64,000 nt of DNA, taken from contig CAAECF010000109.1 in NCBI GenBank assembly GCA_900754275.1, positions 674-64,673 of the forward strand. The letters run 5' to 3'. Below, one piece after another: positions 1,868 through 11,503 of the stretch. Below the pieces are notes generated by a model. The model made no database searches. It was given only the letters and a program-made list of their open reading frames with translations, and was not told the origin of the DNA. The position numbers and the translations under genes are program-made. Source of the stretch: an uncultured Collinsella sp. Its GTDB lineage: Bacteria > Actinomycetota > Coriobacteriia > Coriobacteriales > Coriobacteriaceae. The first letter of the stretch is position 1. Every line of letters begins with the position of its first letter.

Positions 1868-3001
1868 ATGCAGCATTCGAATCATCGCACCGCAGCGTTC
1901 ATTGCGTCGAAGCCGGCTCGTATCATCACGAGCGCCGTGCTCGCCGTTGCGCTGACGGCCACGCCGATGCTCTCCCCCGTTGCGGCGTATGCCGCCTCGC
2001 AGGCAACGCAGGACCAGCTTTCCGCAGCCCAGCAGAAGATCGAAGCCGCCACGAGCGCCTACAACGACGCCCGCACCAAACTCGATGACCTGCAAAAGCA
2101 GATTGACTCCAATGAGGCAAGCATCGAGGAAATCGAGGCCAAGCTTCCCGAGCAGCAGGCCAAGGCAAGCTCCGCCATGCGCGATCTGTACAAGTATCAG
2201 AAGGGCACCAATCCCATCGTGAGCTTCCTGGTCAACGCACAGAGCCTGGGTGAGTTCATCACGACCTGCAAATACACCAACCAGATCACGAGCTCGAGCG
2301 TCGACGAGATCGAACAGCTTAATAACATGCAAACCGAACTCGAGCAGAACAAGGCTGAGCTCCAGCAGGCCAAGTCTCAGCTTGAGGCAGAGCAGAAAAA
2401 CGCCGAGGATGCGTTGGCTCAGGCCCAGCAGCTCCGCAGCGAGGCACAGGCAAAAGCCGAGCAGGAAAATGCCGCCGAGCTTGCCAAGCTTGAGGCCGAT
2501 AAGGCCGCTGCCGCCGAGAAGATCTCGGGCGAGGGCGTAAGCGGCAGCAATTCCAGCAGCCAGGCCACCAACACCAACACCACCATCGACACCACGGTGA
2601 ACAACGCCAATACCGGTAGCTCCGATTACGATTCGTTCATTAATGAGTGGACGAGCCGCATCGACAATTATCTCGCCGGCTCCCCCATGGCAGGCCAGGG
2701 CTATAACTTTGCCGTCGCCGCTTGGAATACCGGTGTCGACCCCCGTTGGTCCCCCGCCATCGCCTGCATCGAGAGCACCAAGGGTGCTTATTGCGCCAAT
2801 TCTTACAACGCCTGGGGCTGGAGTGCCCGTGGCGGCGGTTGGCGCAGCTTTGGCAGCTGGAGCGAGGGCATCTCCGCTCACGTTGCCTATCTGGGCGCCA
2901 ACTACGGCTCCACCCTTACCCCGGCAGCGGCCAAAAAGTACTGCCCGCCCACGTGGCAGGACTGGTACAACAAAGTCGCCGCTCAGATGAACCGCATCTA
3001 A
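1868..3001 (+). CDS. secreted coiled-coil protein with C-terminal putative cell-wall hydrolase-like domain (PcsB-like architecture)
   Basis: ATG at 1868 preceded by GAGGGA; the track start at 1853 is TTG. N-terminal hydrophobic signal/anchor, about 200 aa of heptad-rich Q/E/A/K coiled coil, then a Trp/Gly/Cys-rich C-terminal domain (CIESTKGAYCANSYNAWGW). Confidence 0.55.
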   Translation: MQHSNHRTAAFIASKPARIITSAVLAVALTATPMLSPVAAYAASQATQDQLSAAQQKIEAATSAYNDARTKLDDLQKQIDSNEASIEEIEAKLPEQQAKASSAMRDLYKYQKGTNPIVSFLVNAQSLGEFITTCKYTNQITSSSVDEIEQLNNMQTELEQNKAELQQAKSQLEAEQKNAEDALAQAQQLRSEAQAKAEQENAAELAKLEADKAAAAEKISGEGVSGSNSSSQATNTNTTIDTTVNNANTGSSDYDSFINEWTSRIDNYLAGSPMAGQGYNFAVAAWNTGVDPRWSPAIACIESTKGAYCANSYNAWGWSARGGGWRSFGSWSEGISAHVAYLGANYGSTLTPAAAKKYCPPTWQDWYNKVAAQMNRI

Positions 3002-3012
3002 GCGCAACTGCA

Positions 3013-3040
3013 AAGGGCCCCAATGGGGCCCTTTTCTTTT
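3013..3040 (+). terminator. rho-independent terminator (GGGCCCCAATGGGGCCC hairpin followed by TTTTCTTTT)
   Basis: Perfect 7-bp GC stem followed by a T-run directly after the stop codon at 3001. Confidence 0.7.
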
Positions 3041-4448
3041 AGGTAGCGGAGGTATCGACGACGCCGGTCGCATTGGCAATCGCGACTATGACGATCATGC
3101 ATAGGAGCAGCACACCCAATGCCTTGAGCCAGAGTTTCGCGAGTTTCTTGCCGCGATGGCTGTCGAGCAGTGCGAATCGCCGACGAAGACGGCGCTTATC
3201 GAGCAGCGCAAAATGCATAAGCACCATAAGGCCATCGACAAAGAAAAAATACTCGATTATGAGAAGCCACGTCGGGTAGCTTTGGTTTGCTCCCGTGGGG
3301 TGAAAGACGGCAAAGTGACTTCCGGCAAAGAACACAAGTAGCGAGAAGCAGACGAGCGCATTCCAAATGCGCCCCAGAGACTCCGGAACGCGAGAGAGCA
3401 GACCGCATGCAGCGGAGGCGGCAGGCCTAGGAAGCCCTGCGGGGTTCTGGAGCCCTTGGAGCGTCAACACCGTCTCCGAGGCCGGAGTACGGACAGGCGC
3501 AGGTGTAGGAGGCCGCACGGGGCGGCTCAGATCGTATGCCGAGCGCGTCGCCCGTCCCAACGCTTCCGCACTCGCAAAACGCTTGGCCGGGTCGAGCGCC
3601 ATCGACATGCAGACGGCATCGGCAAGTGGAGTGGGAATGCCACGCGCCTCGCATTGCTCGCGCATGTCGAGCCCTGGTTTAGGGTCGACTCCCGTCAAGC
3701 AGAAGAACAACAGGGCGCCAAGTGCGTAGACGTCGCTGCGCACACTCGTCTGCCCAAACCCATACTGCTCGGGCGGCGCATAGGGTCGCGTGCCAAACTT
3801 GACGGTGTCGGCATCGGCGCCATCGCGCCATACGCGCGCGATCCCCAAGTCGATAATCACCAGCGACGAAAACGTCAGGCCCTCATCGAGCGTACAGTTC
3901 GCACCCGTCACGATGATATTCGACGGTTTGAGGTCGCGATGGATCACCGGCGCCGACGTCTCCCCCGCCATTGCAAAACCGGCGTGGAGCTCGCCCACGG
4001 CATCGCATAGGGCAGGATACAATTCACGCGCATAATCGGGGGTGGCTCCCAGACGGTCCACCAGCACCCCGAGCGTCTCCCCTTCGATGTATTCCATAAC
4101 CACGTTGAGCTCGTCGCCCACACGACGACAATCGACGATTCTGGGCAGGTGCTCAAAACGCCTGCCTGCCCGCTGAGCGGCAAACAGACGCTCGTATGCC
4201 CCGCCGATTTGAGCCGAGGCATCGATGCGTTTACGGACAAAGGGGCCGAGCGAACCACCACCGGTTCCTTCAAAGTACACGAGCTCGGTTGTTTCAACGG
4301 ACGAGCGCCTAAGTACACGCTCCACGCGATAGCTGTCGTCGCGATCGAGCGACGCCAGATGTTCGGCAAGCGCTGCGGTCAGCTCGTCATCGGAATATGT
4401 TGTGATCTGAGTATCCATAGCCTCCATCATAGCGCAGGGCGCAGACAC
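3039..4448 (-). CDS. Ser/Thr protein kinase with C-terminal transmembrane segments (Hanks-type)
   Basis: HRDLKPSNIIV catalytic loop, DLGIA (DFG-like) and APE motifs, followed by a proline-rich linker and hydrophobic C-terminus. True start may be one of the internal Met codons a few codons in. Confidence 0.85.
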   Translation of the reverse strand: MSAPCAMMEAMDTQITTYSDDELTAALAEHLASLDRDDSYRVERVLRRSSVETTELVYFEGTGGGSLGPFVRKRIDASAQIGGAYERLFAAQRAGRRFEHLPRIVDCRRVGDELNVVMEYIEGETLGVLVDRLGATPDYARELYPALCDAVGELHAGFAMAGETSAPVIHRDLKPSNIIVTGANCTLDEGLTFSSLVIIDLGIARVWRDGADADTVKFGTRPYAPPEQYGFGQTSVRSDVYALGALLFFCLTGVDPKPGLDMREQCEARGIPTPLADAVCMSMALDPAKRFASAEALGRATRSAYDLSRPVRPPTPAPVRTPASETVLTLQGLQNPAGLPRPAASAACGLLSRVPESLGRIWNALVCFSLLVFFAGSHFAVFHPTGANQSYPTWLLIIEYFFFVDGLMVLMHFALLDKRRLRRRFALLDSHRGKKLAKLWLKALGVLLLCMIVIVAIANATGVVDTSAT

Positions 4449-4516
4449 CCCATGGCATCCGCGCCCCGTTCGTTTGCATCGTTGTTCGGCAGCTCCGCCG
4501 GCTCAGATATCAGCCG

Positions 4517-4939
4517 CTAACTCACCGTCTCCTCGCCAAAGCGATACAGCTCCTCGTTGACCTTTTGGAGGCTGCACCCGCGATCGATGCAAAAGATGAT
4601 AATCGCATCACGGCGATCCTTGCAGTTAAGGACGCTTACCCCGGCAGCCGTCAGTGCACGGTTGGTCTCTTTGAGCGTCAGCGCCATCGCAAAGGCAATC
4701 TGCAGCACCTTATTGCGACTCGGATTGCGCGAACCAGTAAAGATCTGATAGCCAAAGGTCTCGTTGAGGTCGGCCATACGCACCACGCGCGAACGCTCCA
4801 AGCCCTTTTCCTGCAGCAGCTGCTTCAGGTAGTCCGAAAGCGACGGGGCGGCAAAGTCGTGCTCCCTGATATAGCCATCGATGTTCGGCGCATCGAGAAG
4901 CTCATTGAGCAACTCCTCGGTCAGCTTTTTATCGGGCAT
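4517..4939 (-). CDS. XRE-family helix-turn-helix transcriptional regulator
   Basis: 140-aa ORF with a Cro/C1-type HTH-like segment (VVRMADLNETFGYQIFTGSRNPSRNKVLQIAFAMAL). Confidence 0.55.
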   Translation of the reverse strand: MPDKKLTEELLNELLDAPNIDGYIREHDFAAPSLSDYLKQLLQEKGLERSRVVRMADLNETFGYQIFTGSRNPSRNKVLQIAFAMALTLKETNRALTAAGVSVLNCKDRRDAIIIFCIDRGCSLQKVNEELYRFGEETVS

Positions 4940-5579: not shown

Positions 5580-5909
5580 TCAACCCACCGTGACGGATTT
5601 CCCGGTAAAGGCACTGATCATCAACAGGGCAAAGAACACCAGGTAGCTGACACTCAGCGGGTACGCAGTGATCAGGAATACGACCCAGCCGACATTGGTT
5701 TTACCGTCGGCACGGCGTTGCCCGCGATTGCGGCAGAGCCAAATCGTCACGCCGATGGCAGTGATAAACAGTACGAGTGCCGCCGCAGCCAGCCCAGCAA
5801 GCACAAACATCACGCCAATGCTCACAGCAATGACCGGAAGTAGCAGCAAACCACACCCGCATCCACCCGGACTATATACGGCAGATTGCCGACGTCGCCT
5901 CATCGTCAC
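5580..5909 (-). CDS. small integral membrane protein (3 predicted TM helices)
   Basis: 109-aa hydrophobic ORF; its stop overlaps the start of the upstream M20 gene (ATGA overlap), suggesting translational coupling. Confidence 0.4.
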   Translation of the reverse strand: MTMRRRRQSAVYSPGGCGCGLLLLPVIAVSIGVMFVLAGLAAAALVLFITAIGVTIWLCRNRGQRRADGKTNVGWVVFLITAYPLSVSYLVFFALLMISAFTGKSVTVG

Positions 5910-7108
5910 TCCATCACGAGCAATCGTTTGTAGACATCGAGGCCCTTGAGTAGGATTTCCTCGTCAAAGAGCATGGTATCGGTATGCAGAGCGCTCGTGG
6001 CATAGGCGGGGCAGCCATCCGAATCGCTCGGGTTTTCTTGACCCTCCGGCACGCCCGTGCCCAGCAAGAAGAACACGCCCGGCAGATGACGCTGATAGAA
6101 CGCGAAATCCTCGGCGATTAGCAGTGGCTCGTCCACAAGTTGCAGCTCGGACAAGGCAGGCGCAATGTGGGCGAACAGCTCGGGGTCGTTATCGACCGGC
6201 GGATAGCCCTCGGCAAAGTCGAGGTCGTACGTGCAGCCTGTTGCGGCGCAGGCCTCGTCCAACACGCGGCGCACGCCCTCGCGCGCACGGTCGAACATAC
6301 CGTCCGTAAACACGCGCAGGCTGCCAGCCACATGGGCCTCCCCCGCCACCGCATTGCAGACGGTGCCGGCCTGCAGCAGGCCGAACTTACCAATGCAGGG
6401 CTCGTCGGCACCCAACTCGTCCATGAGCTCGCGCTCGGAAACCAAGAACTTGGCCGCTGCCAGCGCGGCATCATGCGATTCCTCGACTGGAACGCCGTAG
6501 GTCTTGGCGATATGGATGCTCGTGCCATGGATATGAATGTGCGTCTCACTTGAGCGCGCCAGCAGCGGACCGGAACAGCTCGCCAACGTGCCGGCGGGCA
6601 AATCGGGCCATACGTGGAAGCCGAAGATGCGATCCGCCCCGTAGCGCTCGAATACGCCGCTCTCACACACCGTCTTGGCGCCACCGGTCGTTTCCTCGGC
6701 CGGCTGAAACACAAAGAGCACGTTGCGCTTGATGGCACCCGGCTGCTCACGAATCGTGCGATCGACATAAGTCGCGGCGGCAAGCACCATGGCCATGTGT
6801 CCATCGTGCCCGCAAGCATGCATCTTGCCGGGATGGGTCGAAGCGAACGCTGCCCCCGTTGCCTCGGCAATGGGCAGCGCATCCATATCGGCGCGAATCG
6901 CCGTGGCATGCGCGGCGCCAACGCCAGCGTCGAAGAAAGCGCAGACGCAGCCGGGGCACGGATGGGTCACCTCGCAGGCGAGCGGAGCGAGCACGCCTTC
7001 AATATAGGCGATAGTCTGCGGAAGATCGAAGTCGAGCTCCGGAATGCGGTGCAAGTCGCGACGATAACGACGGAGTTCTTGGAGCTCGGTCATAGGGATT
7101 CCTTTCAT
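5906..7108 (-). CDS. M20-family amidohydrolase (N-acyl-amino-acid deacylase; candidate N-acetyl-diaminopimelate deacetylase)
   Basis: HACGHDGH metal-binding motif and M20D architecture, 400 aa. The deacetylase role is inferred from the neighbouring dapH pathway. Confidence 0.75.
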   Translation of the reverse strand: MKGIPMTELQELRRYRRDLHRIPELDFDLPQTIAYIEGVLAPLACEVTHPCPGCVCAFFDAGVGAAHATAIRADMDALPIAEATGAAFASTHPGKMHACGHDGHMAMVLAAATYVDRTIREQPGAIKRNVLFVFQPAEETTGGAKTVCESGVFERYGADRIFGFHVWPDLPAGTLASCSGPLLARSSETHIHIHGTSIHIAKTYGVPVEESHDAALAAAKFLVSERELMDELGADEPCIGKFGLLQAGTVCNAVAGEAHVAGSLRVFTDGMFDRAREGVRRVLDEACAATGCTYDLDFAEGYPPVDNDPELFAHIAPALSELQLVDEPLLIAEDFAFYQRHLPGVFFLLGTGVPEGQENPSDSDGCPAYATSALHTDTMLFDEEILLKGLDVYKRLLVME

Positions 7109-7239
7109 AGGCGCGCGCCAGTTACCATCTTATTGTGCCGCAAGATTGCCGCACCCTTATTTCCAGCATATCCCTGCATTTTTTAAACGTTATATACGAA
7201 TACTCTTGTTTGGTAAAGTGCAACGTGATAGGGTCTTTA

Positions 7240-7425
7240 CCACTTGATAGAGGCGCGGGCACGAAGAGCCGCGGGCGAGCCGGCAGGCTTTGACCCCGTG
7301 GGGAGGCGAAACCCGCCGAACTGGGTTTTTCGGGCACGAACAACCTGGTGGGCCTGTGGGAAACACCCACAGGACTGTCTGCAGCAATGCGGGAGCGCTA
7401 TCCGGACATTGGGTCCACGCTATGC
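7240..7425 (+). ncRNA. lysine riboswitch (L-box) in the leader of the lysA-dapA-dapB-dapH operon
   Basis: Conserved L-box blocks are present in order: GATAGAGGCGC...GGGGAGGCGAAA...GCCGAAC...GGACTGTC...GGGAGCGCTATC, about 230-40 nt upstream of the lysA ATG. The 360-nt non-coding leader ends with a GAGG RBS. Confidence 0.7.
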
Positions 7426-7473
7426 GGATTCGATGCGCAGATGGCGCCGTCTGGATAGCGAGGTTTACGGGAC

Positions 7474-9783
7474 ATGGCATTGACCCCCAACGAGGCGTAT
7501 GCGGCCAAGCAGCCGTTTGTGAACAAGGAGACACTCGAGCATATCGTCGAGCAGTTCCCCACGCCGTTTCATCTATACGACGAGGCGGGCATCCGCCGCA
7601 ACATGCAAGAAGTGCGCGACGCCTTTGCATGGAACCCGGGCTTTAAGGAATACTTTGCCGTCAAGGCCAACCCCAACCCGGCGCTCATCTCCATTCTCAA
7701 CGAATACGGCTGCGGCTGCGATTGCTCGAGCTATACCGAGCTCATGATCGCCCGCTCGCTGGGCATCACGGGACACGACATCATGTTCTCTTCCAACGAC
7801 ACGCCGGCTGCCGACTTTGAGCTCGCCAACAAGCTGGGTGCCATCGTCAACTTTGACGACATCAGCCACATCGAGTTCTTTGAGCGTGTTGCGGGGCCCA
7901 TCCCCAAAACGGTCAGCTGCCGCTTTAATCCAGGCGGCCTGTTCCAACTCTCCAACGGCATCATGGACAACCCGGGCGACTCCAAATATGGCATGACCAC
8001 CGAGCAGCTCTTTGAGGCCTTCCGCATGCTCAAGGCCAAGGGCGCCGAGAATTTTGGCATCCATGCCTTCCTTGCCAGCAACACCGTCACTAACGACTAC
8101 TATCCCAAGCTCGCACGCATCCTCTTTAAACTTGCCGTGCGCCTGGAGCGCGAGACCGGCGCACATGTCGCCTTTATCAATCTGTCCGGCGGTGTGGGTA
8201 TCCCCTACCTGCCCGAGCAGCAGGCTAACGACATTCACGCCATCGGTGAGGGCGTACACGCAGCCTACGACGAGATTCTGGTCCCCGCCGGCATGGGCGA
8301 TGTGGCGATCTGCACCGAGATGGGTCGCTTTATGATGGGCCCCTACGGCTGCCTGGTCACCAAGGCCATCCACGAGAAGCAGATCTACAAGGACTATATC
8401 GGCGTGGACGCAAGCGCCGTCGATCTGATTCGTCCTGCCATGTATGGCGCCTACCACCACATTACGGTGATGGGCCAGCCGGGTGGCGACGACAAGACCA
8501 CAGCCCCCGTCACGAACACGTACGACATCACGGGCAATCTGTGCGAGAACAATGACAAGTTCGCCATCGACCGCGAGCTTCCGCATATCGACATGGGCGA
8601 CCTGCTCGTGATTCACGACACCGGCGCGCATGGCCACTCTATGGGCTACAACTACAACGGCCGCCTGCGCTCCGCCGAGGTCCTGCTGCGCCCCGATGGC
8701 TCGGCAGACCTCATTCGCCGCGCCGAGCGCCCGGGCGATTACTTTGCCACGCTCGACGTGCTGCCGTGCGGCCGCGAGCTGCTGGCCAAATCGCGCGCCG
8801 AAAGCGCCCGCCATCGCGCTCAGGACGAGCGCCTAGCAGTCGCCGCCCAATGGAACAAACGCGTCCAGATCGCGGAAGCGAAGGAGAAGAACATGGATAT
8901 CCGCAATCTCGAGGGCTCAATCGTCGCCCTTGTCACGCCGTTTAAAAAGGACGGCAGTGTCGACTTTGACGCGCTTGAGCGCCTTATCGATTTCCACCTG
9001 CAAAATGGCACTGACGCCATCCTCATCCTGGGCACCACCGGTGAGAGTGCCACGATGACCGATGACGAGGACAACTCCGTCGTCGCCGCTGTGGTCAAGC
9101 ATGTTGCAGGACGCGTCCCCGTTATTGCCGGCTCGGGCTCCAACTCCACGCAGACCATGCTCACCAAGTCGCTCACCTATCAGGGCCTGGGCGCCGACGG
9201 TCTGCTGCTCATCACCCCCTACTACAACAAGTCCAATGAAGAGGGTATCTATCAGCACTTTAAGACCGTCGCCGATGCCGTGGACATCCCCTGCATCCTG
9301 TACAACATCCCCGGCCGCTGTGGCTGCGGCATCAGCGAGCGCAACGTAGAACGCCTGGCCGCGCACCCCAACATCATGGGTATTAAGGAGGCCTCGGGCA
9401 ACGTCGCCTACGCGGCCAAGATCGCCCACCTGCTGTCAGACGACTTCCGCATGTACTCGGGCGAGGACGCGCTTACCGTACCGCTCATGAGCCTGGGCGC
9501 CTCGGGCACCATCAGCGTGTGGGCAGACGTGCAGCCGCAGCTCGTGCATGACATGTGCCGTGCCTATTTGGACGGTGACGTGGCGCGTGCCCGCGATATC
9601 CAAATTGCCGGCCAGCCGCTCATCAATGCCCTCTTTAGTGAGGTCAACCCCATCCCCGTCAAAGAGGCGCTCGCCCAGATGGGTATGATCGAGGCAAACT
9701 ACCGCATGCCGCTGTGCCCCATGGCAGACGACACGCGCTCTGCACTTACCGATGCTCTGAAGGGGGCTGGTCTGCTTGATTAA
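7474..9783 (+). CDS. lysA: single in-frame ORF of diaminopimelate decarboxylase (LysA, first about 450 aa) and 4-hydroxy-tetrahydrodipicolinate synthase (DapA, last 296 aa)
   Basis: N-terminus is an Orn/DAP/Arg decarboxylase fold (FAVKANPNP, GCGCDCSSYTEL, EVLLRPDGSADLIRR). No stop codon occurs before the DapA domain; the linker is about 45 aa. Confidence 0.75.
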   Translation: MALTPNEAYAAKQPFVNKETLEHIVEQFPTPFHLYDEAGIRRNMQEVRDAFAWNPGFKEYFAVKANPNPALISILNEYGCGCDCSSYTELMIARSLGITGHDIMFSSNDTPAADFELANKLGAIVNFDDISHIEFFERVAGPIPKTVSCRFNPGGLFQLSNGIMDNPGDSKYGMTTEQLFEAFRMLKAKGAENFGIHAFLASNTVTNDYYPKLARILFKLAVRLERETGAHVAFINLSGGVGIPYLPEQQANDIHAIGEGVHAAYDEILVPAGMGDVAICTEMGRFMMGPYGCLVTKAIHEKQIYKDYIGVDASAVDLIRPAMYGAYHHITVMGQPGGDDKTTAPVTNTYDITGNLCENNDKFAIDRELPHIDMGDLLVIHDTGAHGHSMGYNYNGRLRSAEVLLRPDGSADLIRRAERPGDYFATLDVLPCGRELLAKSRAESARHRAQDERLAVAAQWNKRVQIAEAKEKNMDIRNLEGSIVALVTPFKKDGSVDFDALERLIDFHLQNGTDAILILGTTGESATMTDDEDNSVVAAVVKHVAGRVPVIAGSGSNSTQTMLTKSLTYQGLGADGLLLITPYYNKSNEEGIYQHFKTVADAVDIPCILYNIPGRCGCGISERNVERLAAHPNIMGIKEASGNVAYAAKIAHLLSDDFRMYSGEDALTVPLMSLGASGTISVWADVQPQLVHDMCRAYLDGDVARARDIQIAGQPLINALFSEVNPIPVKEALAQMGMIEANYRMPLCPMADDTRSALTDALKGAGLLD
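8893..9783 (+). CDS. dapA: 4-hydroxy-tetrahydrodipicolinate synthase (DapA) reading frame with its own internal RBS and start
   Basis: MDIRNLEGSIVALVTPF start preceded by GAAGGAGAAG (6-nt spacer). Class I aldolase DapA motifs (TTGES, active-site Lys region GIKEASGN). Confidence 0.8.
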   Translation: MDIRNLEGSIVALVTPFKKDGSVDFDALERLIDFHLQNGTDAILILGTTGESATMTDDEDNSVVAAVVKHVAGRVPVIAGSGSNSTQTMLTKSLTYQGLGADGLLLITPYYNKSNEEGIYQHFKTVADAVDIPCILYNIPGRCGCGISERNVERLAAHPNIMGIKEASGNVAYAAKIAHLLSDDFRMYSGEDALTVPLMSLGASGTISVWADVQPQLVHDMCRAYLDGDVARARDIQIAGQPLINALFSEVNPIPVKEALAQMGMIEANYRMPLCPMADDTRSALTDALKGAGLLD

Positions 9784-10516
9784 GACCGTCATTATGGGAA
9801 CGGGCCGCATGGGCTCGCTCATCCGCACCACCGCCGAGGGCGTTGTCGACGCCGCCGGTCAACCCGTTTTTGATATCGTGGCCCAGATTGGCTTCGATTT
9901 GAGCAAGCTCGAGAACGCACCGGCTGCCGATGTGATTATCGACTTCTCGAACGTCGTGACCTTCGATGCCGTCGTCGCCTATGTCGAGCGCACGGGCGCG
10001 GCGTTGGTCTCGGGCACCACAGGCTACACCCCCGAGCAGATGGACCGTCTGCGCGAGCTGGGCCAGAACACCCGCGTTATGCACTCGGGCAATTACTCCA
10101 TCGGCATCGCAGCCCTGCGTCATCTAGTGGCCCAGGCCACGCGCGAGTTGCCCGGCTTTGACTGCGAAATCGTCGAGACGCACCATAACCAAAAGGTCGA
10201 CGCCCCCAGCGGTACCGCCAAGCTGCTGCTCGACGCCGTAGTCGAGGCCGAGCCCGAGACAGGCTACCACCCCGTCTACGGACGCGAGGGCATGTGCGGC
10301 GCGCGCGATCCCAAGGAGATCGGCATGCACTCGCTGCGCGGTGGCACTGTCGCCGGCGTCCACGAAGTGAGTTTCTTTGGCCAGGACGAGGAGGTCACGC
10401 TCACCCACCGCGCCACGAGCCGTCAGATCTTTGTCAACGGCGCCCTGGCAGCCGCGCAGAAGCTCGTCGCCCGCGAACCCGGCTTCTACACCTTCGACCA
10501 GGTCATGTTTGCCTAA
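9776..10516 (+). CDS. dapB: 4-hydroxy-tetrahydrodipicolinate reductase
   Basis: GTGRMG NAD(P)-binding motif and ETHHNQKVDAPSGTA signature. Overlaps the dapA stop by 8 nt (translational coupling). Confidence 0.9.
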   Translation: MIKTVIMGTGRMGSLIRTTAEGVVDAAGQPVFDIVAQIGFDLSKLENAPAADVIIDFSNVVTFDAVVAYVERTGAALVSGTTGYTPEQMDRLRELGQNTRVMHSGNYSIGIAALRHLVAQATRELPGFDCEIVETHHNQKVDAPSGTAKLLLDAVVEAEPETGYHPVYGREGMCGARDPKEIGMHSLRGGTVAGVHEVSFFGQDEEVTLTHRATSRQIFVNGALAAAQKLVAREPGFYTFDQVMFA

Positions 10517-10555
10517 CCAGGTATCAACCGAATCCACCCAAAGGAGAGATGGTAA

Positions 10556-11275
10556 ATGAGTAACGCAGCCGAGATGGATGCACAAGAGATTATCAACTAC
10601 ATCGCCACCGCGCCCAAAAAGACGCCCGTCAAGCTGTACGTGCGCGAGAAGCCCGGCATGAAGGTTGCCTGGGGCGACGCACATGTCTACGGCGGCCGTC
10701 GCGGCAAGACCGTCTTTGGCGACTGGGATGAGCTCAAGGCCATCCTCGATGCCAATGCCGACTCCATCGACTACTACGATGTCGAGAATGACTGCCGCAA
10801 CTCTGCCGTGCCCATGCTCGACCTTAAGGGCATCAACGCCCGCATCGAGCCGGGCGCGATCATCCGTGACCGCGTCGAGATCGGCGACCGTGCCGTCATC
10901 ATGATGGGCGCCATCATCAACATCGGCTCCGTTATCGGCGAGGGTTCCATGATCGATATGGGCGCCGTGCTGGGCGGTCGCGCCACCGTGGGCAAGAACT
11001 GCCACATCGGCGCCGGCACCGTGCTGGCAGGCGTTGTGGAGCCCGCCAGCGCCACGCCCGTCATCATCGAGGACGATGTCATGATCGGCGCAAACGCCGT
11101 GGTCCTGGAAGGCGTGCACGTGGGCAAGGGTGCTGTAGTTGCCGCCGGCGCCGTGTGCGTCGAGGACGTCCCCGCCGGCGCCGTCGTGGCCGGTGTCCCC
11201 GCCCGCGCCATCAAGATGCGCGACGAGAAGACCGACAGCAAGACCGGCCTGGAAGAGGGCCTGCGCCAGCTTTAA
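10556..11275 (+). CDS. dapH: 2,3,4,5-tetrahydropyridine-2,6-dicarboxylate N-acetyltransferase (DapH-type, hexapeptide-repeat)
   Basis: 239 aa. N-terminal DapH-specific domain followed by left-handed beta-helix hexapeptide repeats ([33 protein letters not shown]). RBS AAAGGAGAGATGG upstream. Confidence 0.8.
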
Positions 11276-11278
11276 TAG

Positions 11279-11306
11279 TTACGGCGTTTTACCAAACGCC
11301 GTAACG
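11279..11306. other. perfect 12-bp stem hairpin (GTTACGGCGTTT/AAACGCCGTAAC) immediately after dapH; no U-tract
   Basis: Seen directly in the sequence. Confidence 0.5.
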
Positions 11307-11459
11307 GCCCGACGCTGCAAACGCCCCTAAGCGGCAATCTGACGTTCAATCGTCGGTCGCGTACCGAAGTACGCTTCCCTCCTCTTTCACGTCACCTTGC
11401 TCGCTTAGGGGCGTTTTCGCTGACGTATGCTCGACCTGCAACGTAATTCAGCCCCAAGT

Positions 11460-11503
11460 AAAAAGGCCGAAGCCCTCATCCGGGGCTTCGGCCTTTATTT
11501 TTG
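11460..11503. terminator. bidirectional rho-independent terminator between convergent dapH and ndpA-like genes
   Basis: AAAAA-GGCCGAAGCCC-tcatcc-GGGGCTTCGGCC-TTTATTTTT. Confidence 0.8.

What the first reader, a model, noticed from the sequence alone, without database searches (positions are those of the whole stretch)
7474..9783. lysA and dapA are in one reading frame with no stop: predicted 769-aa bifunctional fusion, with dapA retaining its own strong internal RBS
A complete DAP-decarboxylase domain (about 450 aa) is followed by a 45-aa Ala/Arg/Glu-rich linker and then a complete DapA (296 aa starting MDIRNLEGS). Directly upstream of that Met is GAAGGAGAAG. So either a fusion protein, an independently initiated DapA, or both are made. 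The first and last enzymes of the lysine branch in a single polypeptide would be unusual. Alternatives are a lost stop codon (recent mutation or assembly error) or read-through.
Basis: seen in the sequence. Interest (0 to 1): 0.55.

Follow-up and report, generated by a model that had tools for sequence, protein, structure and literature searches.

The report
Conserved LysA–DapA fusion gene in Collinsella
In the gut bacterium Collinsella aerofaciens and its close relatives, the last enzyme of lysine synthesis (LysA) and the first committed one (DapA) are genuinely joined into one 84-kDa protein that selection keeps intact, while DapA's old start signals survive inside the gene; this is an unremarked but modestly interesting enzyme fusion, not an error.

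Summary
Window 7474-9783 (+) is one 769-codon ORF: a complete DAP-decarboxylase domain (~1-428), a 45-aa linker, and a complete DapA starting at an internal AAGGAG-N6-ATG.

It is not an assembly error or a recent stop loss. The same intact 769-codon frame is present in all 80 best-matching GTDB species-representative genomes. All are Collinsella aerofaciens or Collinsella sp., including ATCC 25986 and other isolates. Two lineages with ~82% DNA identity also keep the frame, although their linker is only ~55% identical.

The linker is translated and constrained: pN/pS is 0.115, substitutions show 3-periodicity, and there are no nonsense changes where at least 5 would be expected under neutrality.

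Unfused relatives (lysA stop, 16-170 nt spacer, dapA) start DapA at the same Met. Standalone Collinsella DapA is almost always 296 aa. So the internal RBS and ATG are the ancestral dapA start. The SD block is invariant even at synonymous sites, which suggests free DapA is also made.

The gene heads a lysine-riboswitch operon (lysA::dapA-dapB-dapH). I found no description in the literature. The nearest precedent is the aspartokinase-LysA fusion of Xanthomonadaceae. Function of the fused state is inferred, not shown.

The parts
7240..7408 (+). Lysine riboswitch (L-box) aptamer that controls the operon
   Evidence: Rfam RF00168, 79.3 bits against a gathering score of 30, full-length model match. 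The same element lies upstream of lysA in L081, L082 and L083.
7460..7476 (+). lysA start region: GAGG, 10 nt, then ATG
   Evidence: Read directly from the sequence. This SD is a weaker match than the internal one.
7474..9783 (+). lysA::dapA fusion ORF, 769 aa, 83.8 kDa
   Evidence: The ORF is intact in 80 of 80 genome loci.
7474..8757 (+). Diaminopimelate decarboxylase (LysA) domain, residues 1-428
   Evidence: PF02784 and PF00278 both match. All best PDB matches are DAP decarboxylases. The AVKAN PLP-lysine, ExGR and CExxD motifs are present.
8758..8892 (+). 45-aa linker (VLPCGRELLAKSRAESARHRAQDERLAVAAQWNKRVQIAEAKEKN). Its 5' part derives from the LysA C-terminal tail. Its 3' part occupies the former intergenic and RBS region.
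   Evidence: pN/pS is 0.115 at pS 0.17. Substitution events by codon position are 28/11/124. AF2 predicts helix 431-466 with pLDDT falling from 82 to 38. The flanks are conserved and the middle is variable in L081 and L086.
8880..8895 (+). Internal Shine-Dalgarno GAAGGAGAAG, AAC, then ATG: the ancestral dapA translation start
   Evidence: Positions -13 to -3 are invariant in 81 genomes, and the AAGGAGAAGAAC-ATG block is also identical in L081 and L086. The same codons elsewhere vary at the third position in 52-100% of cases. Unfused relatives start DapA at the same Met.
8893..9783 (+). 4-hydroxy-tetrahydrodipicolinate synthase (DapA) domain, residues 474-769, plus the stop codon
   Evidence: TIGR00674 scores 340 bits against a cutoff of 206. 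The GTTGES, PYYNK, LYNxPGR and GIKEA catalytic motifs align with P. aeruginosa DHDPS 3noe.
9776..10516 (+). dapB. Its TTG start overlaps the end of the fusion ORF by 8 nt.
   Evidence: TIGR00036 scores 180 bits against a cutoff of 122. ORF coordinates.
10556..11275 (+). dapH, tetrahydrodipicolinate N-acetyltransferase
   Evidence: TIGR03532 DapD_Ac scores 345 bits against a cutoff of 232.
5906..7108 (-). Divergent M20 amidohydrolase, a likely N-acetyl-diaminopimelate deacetylase of the acetylase DAP pathway (inferred from context)
   Evidence: TIGR01891 scores 216 bits. It is syntenic in L082, L086, L089 and L090.

Best explanation
This is a genuine lineage-specific gene fusion that selection maintains. 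In an ancestor of the Collinsella aerofaciens group, the lysA stop codon and the short lysA-dapA spacer of a lysine-riboswitch-controlled lysA-dapA-dapB-dapH operon were lost. LysA's variable C-terminal tail now reads in frame through the former dapA ribosome-binding region into DapA. Translation from the lysA start yields an 84-kDa bifunctional polypeptide. It consists of a PLP-dependent meso-DAP decarboxylase (the last step of lysine synthesis), a roughly 45-residue tether that is largely helical and flexible, and 4-hydroxy-tetrahydrodipicolinate synthase (the first committed step). Because the ancestral AAGGAG-N6-ATG of dapA is preserved inside the ORF under nucleotide-level constraint, a free 31.6-kDa DapA is probably made as well, so one gene would give two products. 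Shown here: the frame, the domain integrity, conservation, purifying selection on the linker, the ancestral identity of the internal start, and the riboswitch and operon context. Inferred: that both activities are real; that the tether lets a DapA oligomer and LysA dimers form in one assembly; that fusion gives co-expression and co-localisation, possibly placing the lysine-producing site next to a potentially lysine-sensitive DapA; and that the internal start is used.
For: The ORF and both complete domains are confirmed. 80 of 80 GTDB species-representative loci carry the same 769-codon ORF at 98-99% aa identity. All are Collinsella and include isolates MCC370, DFI.3.30, AM17-1 and ATCC 25986; 79 of the 81 gene sequences are distinct. 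The exact protein is found in NCBI, ENA and Logan within a 44,670-member cluster. Two further lineages, L081 and L086 (770 aa, 37-44x coverage, ~82% DNA identity across the whole operon), keep the frame through a linker only 53-56% identical. pN/pS is 0.115 for the linker, against 0.047 for LysA and 0.026 for DapA. Linker substitutions are 3-periodic (28/11/124). There are 16 one-step nonsense opportunities and none is observed; about 20 events would be expected at the parsimony rate, or about 5 on my own conservative hand estimate from segregating alleles. Unfused comparators with the same synteny exist: L090/L091 (TAA plus a 16-nt spacer) and L083 (a 170-nt spacer), both starting DapA at MD[IV]R.LEGS. 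Standalone Collinsella DapA is almost always exactly 296 aa. The SD block is invariant, with a codon-matched control giving P of about 0.002-0.02. L025 carries ACG in place of the internal ATG, a fusion-only allele. The DapA catalytic residues T44, Y107, Y133, R138 and K161 are conserved (residue list from PMC5109050). The LysA motifs are present and the best solved relatives are DAP decarboxylases. AF2 folds both domains (mean pLDDT 83) with a low-confidence tether. A lysine riboswitch lies upstream, and dapB and dapH lie downstream. Crystallised DHDPS chains carry 20-35-residue N-terminal extensions, and Collinsella LysA proteins have natural C-terminal tails of 0-45 aa, so both termini tolerate additions.
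Against: There is no protein-level evidence here for an 84-kDa species or for a free DapA. A proteomics preprint lists only 'diaminopimelate decarboxylase' for C. aerofaciens. The LysA domain scores just under the NCBIfam lysA equivalog cutoff and has Phe where the PLP-stacking His normally sits, although this is subfamily-wide. Rare alleles split the frame: L082 has a +1 insertion and L089 a homopolymer +A. Both come from single assemblies, and L089 is error-laden with 23 gaps in 6.6 kb. Selection against stops in the linker could reflect a need for the LysA tail, or for translational coupling, rather than for the fusion itself. NJ trees do not cleanly resolve a single origin. AF2 gives no defined inter-domain geometry (pTM 0.57).
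Confidence: 0.85

Rival explanations
1. Tolerated but functionless fusion. The stop was lost neutrally, and physiologically relevant DapA comes from the internal SD and ATG. The fused polypeptide is a by-product whose tether merely does no harm.
For: The internal SD is stronger than lysA's own and is conserved at synonymous sites. The ancestral state is two genes. At least one assembly (L082) splits the genes by frameshift and still calls a 296-aa DapA. The 3' half of the tether has low AF2 confidence.
Against: No nonsense or frameshift change appears in 81 genomes with pS of about 0.18, nor in two lineages ~18% diverged, although 16 one-step stop opportunities exist. The linker has pN/pS of 0.115. 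Linker flanks are conserved at the amino-acid level through synonymous and Ser-codon (TCT/AGT) changes in L081 and L086. L025 lacks the internal ATG.
Confidence: 0.2
2. Artefact: an assembly or sequencing error, or a very recent strain-specific stop-codon loss.
For: None was found. Only the general prior that unexpected fusions are often errors.
Against: The same frame is found in 80 independent genome assemblies, cultured isolates and the type strain included, and in thousands of metagenome-derived sequences. 47 junction haplotypes are all in frame. Diverged lineages are also fused.
Confidence: 0.01
3. The N-terminal domain is not a DAP decarboxylase but another fold-type III PLP decarboxylase, so the protein does not join the 'first and last' lysine enzymes.
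For: TIGR01048 scores 275 bits, below the 297.9 cutoff. IHAFLAS replaces the HxHxGS motif and GAHG replaces GAYG.
Against: All top PDB relatives are DAP decarboxylases (1e-45 to 1e-32), ahead of BtrK and D-Orn/Lys decarboxylase. A lysine riboswitch lies directly upstream and dapA, dapB and dapH are in the same operon. NCBI names a 76%-identical Collinsella homologue diaminopimelate decarboxylase (P0116). The variant motifs are shared by a broad subfamily. The L-box lysA-dapA-dapB operon is described in Coriobacteriales (PMC5584792).
Confidence: 0.05
4. The fusion is made as a precursor and cleaved in the linker, so the mature enzymes are separate.
For: The linker is basic (Arg/Lys-rich) with a low-confidence 3' half, which could be protease-accessible.
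Against: No evidence for any processing site was found. Bacterial biosynthetic enzymes are rarely matured this way (general knowledge). The middle of the linker is poorly conserved between lineages.
Confidence: 0.04

Closest known systems
Bifunctional aspartate kinase/diaminopimelate decarboxylase (LysAC; NCBIfam NF006515, Xanthomonadaceae)
   Same: It is a single polypeptide that joins an early, flux-controlling enzyme of lysine synthesis to the terminal enzyme LysA. The rationale proposed in the literature is co-localisation and faster end-product feedback (PMC1885841).
   Different: The partner here is DapA (the first committed step of the branch), not aspartokinase. LysA is N-terminal here and C-terminal there. 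The NF006515 model matches only through its LysA part (176 bits against a cutoff of 802). The taxa differ: Actinomycetota (Coriobacteriia) versus Gammaproteobacteria.
Lysine-riboswitch-controlled lysA-dapA-dapB(-dapD) operons of Coriobacteriales (Atopobium parvulum, Slackia heliotrinireducens; PMC5584792)
   Same: Gene order and L-box control are the same. Unfused Collinsella loci L083 and L090/L091 have exactly this layout.
   Different: In those operons lysA and dapA are separate cistrons. Here the stop and spacer are gone and the two are one ORF.
Genes with in-frame internal translation initiation that give a long and a short product (E. coli CheA-L/CheA-S, IF2 alpha/beta and ClpB 93/79; from general knowledge, not tested here)
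   Same: An SD and a start codon lie inside an ORF, in frame, and could produce a shorter C-terminal protein alongside the full-length one.
   Different: Here the short product would be a complete, ancestral, independently functional enzyme rather than an isoform. Use of the internal start is inferred only from sequence conservation.
Other fusions in the same LysA subfamily: aminotransferase-LysA (P0225), DUF2322-LysA (P0152, P0158) and DUF5662-LysA (P0184)
   Same: They belong to the same divergent LysA subfamily, and they show that this enzyme tolerates fusion partners.
   Different: In those proteins the partners are N-terminal and none is a DHDPS. Here the partner is C-terminal DapA.

Membership tests
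Diaminopimelate decarboxylase (LysA, fold-type III PLP decarboxylase) | Both Pfam domains (PF02784 N-terminal barrel, PF00278 C-terminal sheet) score above gathering | tested here: met
   97.4 and 63.5 bits against cutoffs of 23.4 and 23
Diaminopimelate decarboxylase (LysA, fold-type III PLP decarboxylase) | Score above the NCBIfam TIGR01048 equivalog cutoff | tested here: not met
   275 bits against a cutoff of 297.9. This is a near miss, and the whole Collinsella subfamily is divergent.
Diaminopimelate decarboxylase (LysA, fold-type III PLP decarboxylase) | PLP-binding Lys (AVKAN), ExGR and CExxD substrate/PLP motifs | tested here: met
   FAVKAN, TEMGRF and LCENNDK align with the 2yxx and 2p3e motifs
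Diaminopimelate decarboxylase (LysA, fold-type III PLP decarboxylase) | His of HxHxGS that stacks on PLP, and Tyr of GAYG | tested here: not met
   IHAFLAS and GAHG are found instead. The same signature occurs in homologues at 30-60% identity, so it is a subfamily trait.
Diaminopimelate decarboxylase (LysA, fold-type III PLP decarboxylase) | Lysine-pathway genomic context | tested here: met
   An L-box lies upstream, dapB and dapH lie downstream, and DapA is fused.
Diaminopimelate decarboxylase (LysA, fold-type III PLP decarboxylase) | meso-DAP decarboxylase activity | not testable with these tools
   Requires an enzyme assay or complementation.
4-hydroxy-tetrahydrodipicolinate synthase (DapA/DHDPS) | Score above the NCBIfam TIGR00674 equivalog cutoff, and ahead of the HpaI and NanA look-alikes relative to their own cutoffs | tested here: met
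   340 bits against 206. HpaI-NOT-DapA scores 277 against 397 and NanA 117 against 382.
4-hydroxy-tetrahydrodipicolinate synthase (DapA/DHDPS) | Catalytic residues Thr44, Tyr107, Tyr133, Arg138 and Schiff-base Lys161 (E. coli numbering) | tested here: met
   GTTGES, TPYYNK, LYNIPGR and GIKEASG align with 3noe. The residue list is from PMC5109050.
4-hydroxy-tetrahydrodipicolinate synthase (DapA/DHDPS) | Marker of lysine allostery at position 56 (His/Glu means inhibited, Lys/Arg means insensitive) | tested here: inconclusive
   The residue is Asp (TMTDDEDN aligned to TLDVEEHI), which the published rule does not cover.
Bifunctional fusion enzyme (one polypeptide, two activities) | Uninterrupted frame conserved across independent genomes and diverged lineages | tested here: met
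   81 of 81 genomes, plus L081 and L086
Bifunctional fusion enzyme (one polypeptide, two activities) | Linker translated and under purifying selection in the fusion frame | tested here: met
   pN/pS is 0.115, substitutions are 3-periodic, and no nonsense changes are seen.
Bifunctional fusion enzyme (one polypeptide, two activities) | Full-length protein detected and both activities measured | not testable with these tools
   The proteomics preprint names only 'diaminopimelate decarboxylase', and no supplements are held.
Nested in-frame internal start (two products from one ORF) | SD at proper spacing before an in-frame start codon that is orthologous to the start of the standalone gene | tested here: met
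   AAGGAG-N6-ATG. Unfused DapA starts at the same Met, and 296-aa homologues predominate.
Nested in-frame internal start (two products from one ORF) | Nucleotide-level (synonymous-site) constraint on the SD | tested here: met
   An 11-nt invariant block, with matched-codon P of about 0.002-0.02. The strength of this evidence is modest.
Nested in-frame internal start (two products from one ORF) | Short product observed | not testable with these tools
   Needs N-terminomics or Ribo-seq.
Aspartokinase-LysA bifunctional enzyme (NF006515) | Aspartokinase domain plus LysA domain, with a score above 802 bits | tested here: not met
   176 bits, and only model positions 496-859 (the LysA part) are matched.
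Lysine riboswitch (RF00168) regulon | Full-length aptamer above gathering score directly upstream on the same strand | tested here: met
   7240-7408 (+), 79.3 bits against 30

The most novel reading that the evidence does not exclude
The fusion is an adaptive regulatory device and not just co-expression. Tethering the lysine-producing LysA active site to DapA (Asp at allosteric position 56) would create local end-product sensing. The oligomer would be closed and stoichiometric, with a DapA tetramer core and two LysA dimers. The retained internal start would let the cell set the ratio of tethered to free DapA. It would also partly uncouple DapA synthesis from riboswitch control at the lysA start.
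Probability: 0.12. Interest if true: 0.6.

Novelty: new variant of a known kind. Interest (0 to 1): 0.35.

Why it matters
Collinsella aerofaciens is among the most abundant Actinomycetota of the human gut, and DapA and LysA are both studied as antibacterial targets. A natural LysA-DapA polypeptide fixed across the whole species group would be a second, independent case in which evolution joined the terminal lysine enzyme to an early, flux-controlling one; the first is aspartokinase-LysA. That supports the idea that proximity of the end-product source to the control point is advantageous. It also offers a clean natural system to test what fusion buys, because fused lineages, unfused lineages, a fusion-only allele (ACG) and a frameshift-split allele all exist. 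In practice, annotation pipelines should name the protein as bifunctional. At present it is reported simply as 'diaminopimelate decarboxylase', which can make dapA look absent in metabolic reconstructions of Collinsella.

Tried and rejected
1. Fusions outside Collinsella. An exhaustive phmmer search of 1.84 billion cluster representatives listed no protein covering both domains in the top 150. Pfam scans of the longer hits showed other partners (aminotransferase, DUF2322, DUF5662, PPDK_N) but no DHDPS. This negative is weak. The Collinsella fusions themselves are represented there only by fragments, so other fusions could be hidden behind single-domain representatives.

2. Mosaic 'fusion' proteins P0013-P0027. 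Their LysA part is 65-78% identical while the linker and DapA are 97-99% identical. The two loci examined, L084 and L087, come from 2.5-3.6x metaSPAdes contigs. They show abrupt identity switches at about nt 830 of lysA (and about nt 1935 in L087), different flanking genes and no riboswitch. I treated them as probable chimeric assemblies, or possibly recombinants, and did not use them as evidence.

3. P0030/L088 (2.3x coverage) switches to unrelated genes after the linker, and I ignored it. L089 has a homopolymer +A on a contig with 23 gaps in 6.6 kb, which I regard as likely long-read error.

4. NJ trees of the LysA and DapA domains, built to test a single origin, were not resolved. Fused DapA sequences are mutual nearest neighbours, but several unfused LysA proteins are as close as the fused ones.

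5. The promoter and terminator scan of 7050-11500 found no internal promoter-like site and no terminator within the operon.

6. RNA folding around the internal RBS was not different from shuffles (z = +0.97). The riboswitch expression platform remained ambiguous.

7. AF2 gave no usable inter-domain geometry (pTM 0.57), so I did not run a fold search.

8. Literature searches for a described lysA-dapA fusion found none. No supplementary proteomics data were available.
Full report
OBSERVATION. Window 7474-9783 (+) is a single 769-codon ORF with an ATG start and no internal stop (sequence read). Pfam places the two decarboxylase domains at residues 39-288 and 290-384, and a full-length DHDPS domain at 479-763. 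NCBIfam gives dapA TIGR00674 at 340 bits (cutoff 206). It gives lysA TIGR01048 at 275 bits, just under the 297.9 cutoff. The internal Met (8893-8895, MDIRNLEGS) is preceded by GAAGGAGAAG at 8880-8889, so the layout is AAGGAG, six nucleotides, ATG. The one correction is that the LysA core is ~428 aa rather than ~450. Calculated masses are 83.8 kDa for the fusion, 52.2 kDa for LysA plus linker, and 31.6 kDa for DapA.

IT IS NOT AN ARTEFACT. A search of 5.8 billion protein clusters returned about 27 clusters of 754-770 aa that carry all three Pfam domains. The window's exact protein is present in NCBI, ENA and Logan, inside a 44,670-member cluster. A scan of one genome per GTDB species found 593 related stretches. 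The 80 best all matched residues 1-769 at 98-99% identity. All are Collinsella aerofaciens or Collinsella sp., and they include cultured isolates (MCC370, DFI.3.30, AM17-1) and ATCC 25986. I extracted the gene from every locus. All 80 have an intact 769-codon ORF. 79 of the 81 sequences are distinct, and there are 47 different junction haplotypes. Two further lineages, L081 and L086 (770 aa; 37x and 44x contigs), are uniformly ~82% identical to the window at the DNA level across the whole operon. They still keep the frame, although their linker is only 53-56% identical.

THE LINKER IS TRANSLATED AND CONSTRAINED. Across the 81 genomes pS is ~0.17-0.21 throughout the gene. pN/pS is 0.047 for LysA, 0.026 for DapA and 0.115 for the 45-codon linker. 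Parsimony events in the linker fall 28/11/124 on codon positions 1/2/3, which is clear 3-periodicity in the fusion frame. The linker contains 16 one-step nonsense opportunities. At the neutral rate estimated from four-fold sites, about 20 nonsense events would be expected. That rate is inflated by recombination, and my own conservative hand estimate from segregating alleles is about 5. None is observed. In L081 and L086 the linker flanks are conserved at the protein level through synonymous changes (LPxGRELLAxxR ... WNKRIxIAxxKEKNM), including a TCT/AGT serine codon switch. The ~18 residues in the middle vary.

ORIGIN. Unfused relatives with the same synteny show the ancestral layout: a divergent M20 amidohydrolase, then L-box, lysA, dapA, dapB and dapH. 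In L090/L091, lysA (435 aa) ends in TAA and 16 nt later dapA starts MDIRNLEGS. In L083 a 170-nt spacer precedes GAGGAGG...ATG MDVRKLEGS. Standalone Collinsella DapA proteins at 78-91% identity are almost all exactly 296 aa. So the internal ATG and SD of the fusion are the orthologous dapA start signals. Collinsella LysA proteins end in variable tails of 0-45 residues after DYFATLDVLPEGRxLL. The first part of the linker is that tail, and the last part occupies the former spacer and RBS. Within the DapA domain the fused lineages are each other's nearest neighbours (91-94%, against 89% or less to unfused). This fits one origin, but the NJ trees, especially for LysA, do not resolve it. The L-box lysA-dapA-dapB(-dapD) operon with separate genes has been described for other Coriobacteriales (PMC5584792).

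THE INTERNAL START. Positions -13 to -3 (GCGAAGGAGAA, window 8880-8890) are invariant in all 81 genomes. The AAGGAGAAGAAC-ATG block is also identical in L081 and L086. Elsewhere in the gene the same codons vary at the third position often: AAG in 67% of cases, GAG in 61%, AAC in 52% and GCG in 100%. Joint invariance therefore has a probability of about 0.02, or about 0.002 if GCG is included. pS over the last eight linker codons is 0.046, against ~0.18 elsewhere. This is modest but consistent evidence that the SD is still used, so free DapA is probably made as well. Conversely, one genome (L025) has ACG instead of the internal ATG, so it can only make fused DapA. Two assemblies split the frame. 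L082 has a +1 insertion. L089 has a homopolymer +A on a contig with 23 gaps in 6.6 kb, which is probably sequencing error.

BOTH DOMAINS LOOK FUNCTIONAL. DapA aligns end to end with P. aeruginosa DHDPS (3noe, E = 5e-86). The motifs holding Thr44, Tyr107, Tyr133, Arg138 and Lys161 are conserved (residue list from PMC5109050). Allosteric position 56 is Asp. The published rule (His/Glu means lysine-inhibited, Lys/Arg means insensitive) does not cover Asp, so lysine sensitivity is open. The best solved relatives of the LysA domain are all DAP decarboxylases. It keeps the AVKAN lysine, ExGR and CExxD motifs. It has IHAFLAS and GAHG where the canonical enzymes have HxHxGS and GAYG. That signature is shared by homologues at 30-60% identity, so it is a subfamily trait unrelated to the fusion.

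STRUCTURE. AlphaFold2 was run on an alignment of the fusions plus standalone LysA and DapA relatives. It folds both domains (mean pLDDT 83). It models residues 431-466 as one helix whose confidence decays from ~82 to ~38, with residues 450-473 below 50. pTM is 0.57, so the inter-domain geometry is undefined. This fits a flexible tether. Crystallised DHDPS chains with 20-35-residue N-terminal extensions, and the naturally variable LysA tails, indicate that both termini tolerate additions. It is inference only that LysA dimers and a DapA oligomer can form simultaneously.

CONTEXT. A full-length lysine riboswitch lies at 7240-7408 (79 bits), and also upstream in L081, L082 and L083. Downstream lie dapB, whose TTG start at 9776 overlaps the end of the fusion ORF by 8 nt, and dapH. 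Upstream and divergent lies an M20 amidohydrolase, a probable N-acetyl-DAP deacetylase. No promoter-like or terminator-like site interrupts the operon.

COMPARISON AND NOVELTY. The nearest precedent is the aspartokinase-LysA fusion of Xanthomonadaceae. NCBIfam NF006515 matches here only through its LysA half. The rationale proposed for that fusion is co-localisation and faster end-product feedback (PMC1885841). Other N-terminal partners occur in the same LysA subfamily: aminotransferase, DUF2322 and DUF5662. No LysA-DHDPS architecture appeared among the top 150 of 1.84 billion representatives. That negative is weak, because the Collinsella fusions themselves are represented there only by fragments. 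Literature searches found no description of a lysA-dapA fusion. A C. aerofaciens proteomics preprint refers to the protein simply as 'diaminopimelate decarboxylase'. The sequences have long been public, so what is new is recognising and characterising the architecture. It is a new variant of a known kind, namely lysine-pathway fusion enzymes.

VERDICT. This is a real, conserved, selected LysA-DapA fusion gene at the head of an L-box operon, with the ancestral dapA start retained inside it (confidence ~0.85). That both a fused and a free DapA are made is plausible (~0.5). That the fusion confers a specific regulatory or channelling advantage is speculative (~0.1-0.2). Interest is moderate to low: it is a tidy, testable evolutionary case in an important gut commensal, and a useful annotation correction, but not a surprise in kind.

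Noticed in passing
window 7240-7408 (+): A full-length lysine riboswitch aptamer (RF00168, 79 bits) lies directly upstream of the fusion gene. No intrinsic terminator lies between it and the ATG. A long hairpin (about 7396-7460) ends just before the GAGG SD, so control may act on translation, but the expression platform was not resolved.
   Followed up: partly
L084 (gene 658-2952) and L087 (gene 2461-4743): These 'fusion' genes are mosaics. The first ~830 nt of lysA are only ~60-70% identical to the window, and identity then jumps to ~93%. In L087 it drops again to ~55% after about nt 1935. Flanking genes differ and no riboswitch is found upstream. Both contigs have 2.5-3.6x coverage and their sample accessions are similar (ERZ1304515, ERZ1303420). 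They are probably chimeric assemblies, but recombination inside lysA is not excluded. Proteins P0013-P0027 show the same per-domain identity pattern.
   Followed up: partly
L083 1950-2094: The 170-nt lysA-dapA spacer of this unfused relative contains a 27-nt inverted repeat (85% complementary, arms 91 nt apart). Its left arm overlaps the lysA stop codon. This may be a MITE- or REP-like insertion that supplies the stop. The sequence just before it (GGAGGGAGAAGAA) resembles the dapA SD region of the fused genes.
   Followed up: partly
L025 (MAG JBKWEB010000017.1), internal start position of the fusion gene: The internal ATG is ACG (Thr) in this one genome, so DapA can only be made as the fusion. 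L080 has AAC changed to AGC immediately before the ATG.
   Followed up: no
L082 (about 4660) and L089 (about 3395): These are frame-splitting alleles of the fusion. L082 has a +1 C insertion in the linker. L089 has an extra A in an A-run. Each yields a 490-aa LysA that overlaps a separately called DapA. L089 also has a truncated dapB and 23 alignment gaps, so it is probably sequencing error. L082 comes from a single Logan assembly.
   Followed up: partly
window 7474-8757 (LysA domain): The domain belongs to a broad, divergent LysA subfamily. Phe replaces the PLP-stacking His (IHAFLAS instead of HxHxGS), GAHG replaces GAYG, and a CENND motif is present. It scores just under the NCBIfam lysA equivalog cutoff (275 against 297.9).
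   Followed up: partly
P0225, P0152, P0158, P0184 (proteins): Other fusion architectures occur in the same LysA subfamily: class I/II aminotransferase-LysA (855 aa), DUF2322-LysA and DUF5662-LysA. The aminotransferase-LysA fusion would join another DAP-pathway-type enzyme to LysA.
   Followed up: no
window 9776-9783: The dapB TTG start overlaps the end of the fusion ORF by 8 nt (TTGATTAA), which suggests translational coupling of dapB to the fusion gene. An in-frame ATG 18 nt downstream (9794) is an alternative start.
   Followed up: no
L085 (lysA 3001-4308): In some Collinsella, lysA (435 aa, same MALTPNEAYAAK N-terminus, same divergent M20 neighbour) is not followed by dapA at all. The lysA-dapA junction is therefore evolutionarily fluid in the genus, with four states seen: lysA alone, a 16-nt spacer, a 170-nt spacer, and fused.
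   Followed up: no
window 7573-8814 (-) and 10124-11119 (-): Long antisense ORFs (413 and 331 aa) lie opposite lysA and opposite dapB-dapH. I regard them as the usual high-GC artefacts rather than genes. I did not run them against any family library.
   Followed up: no
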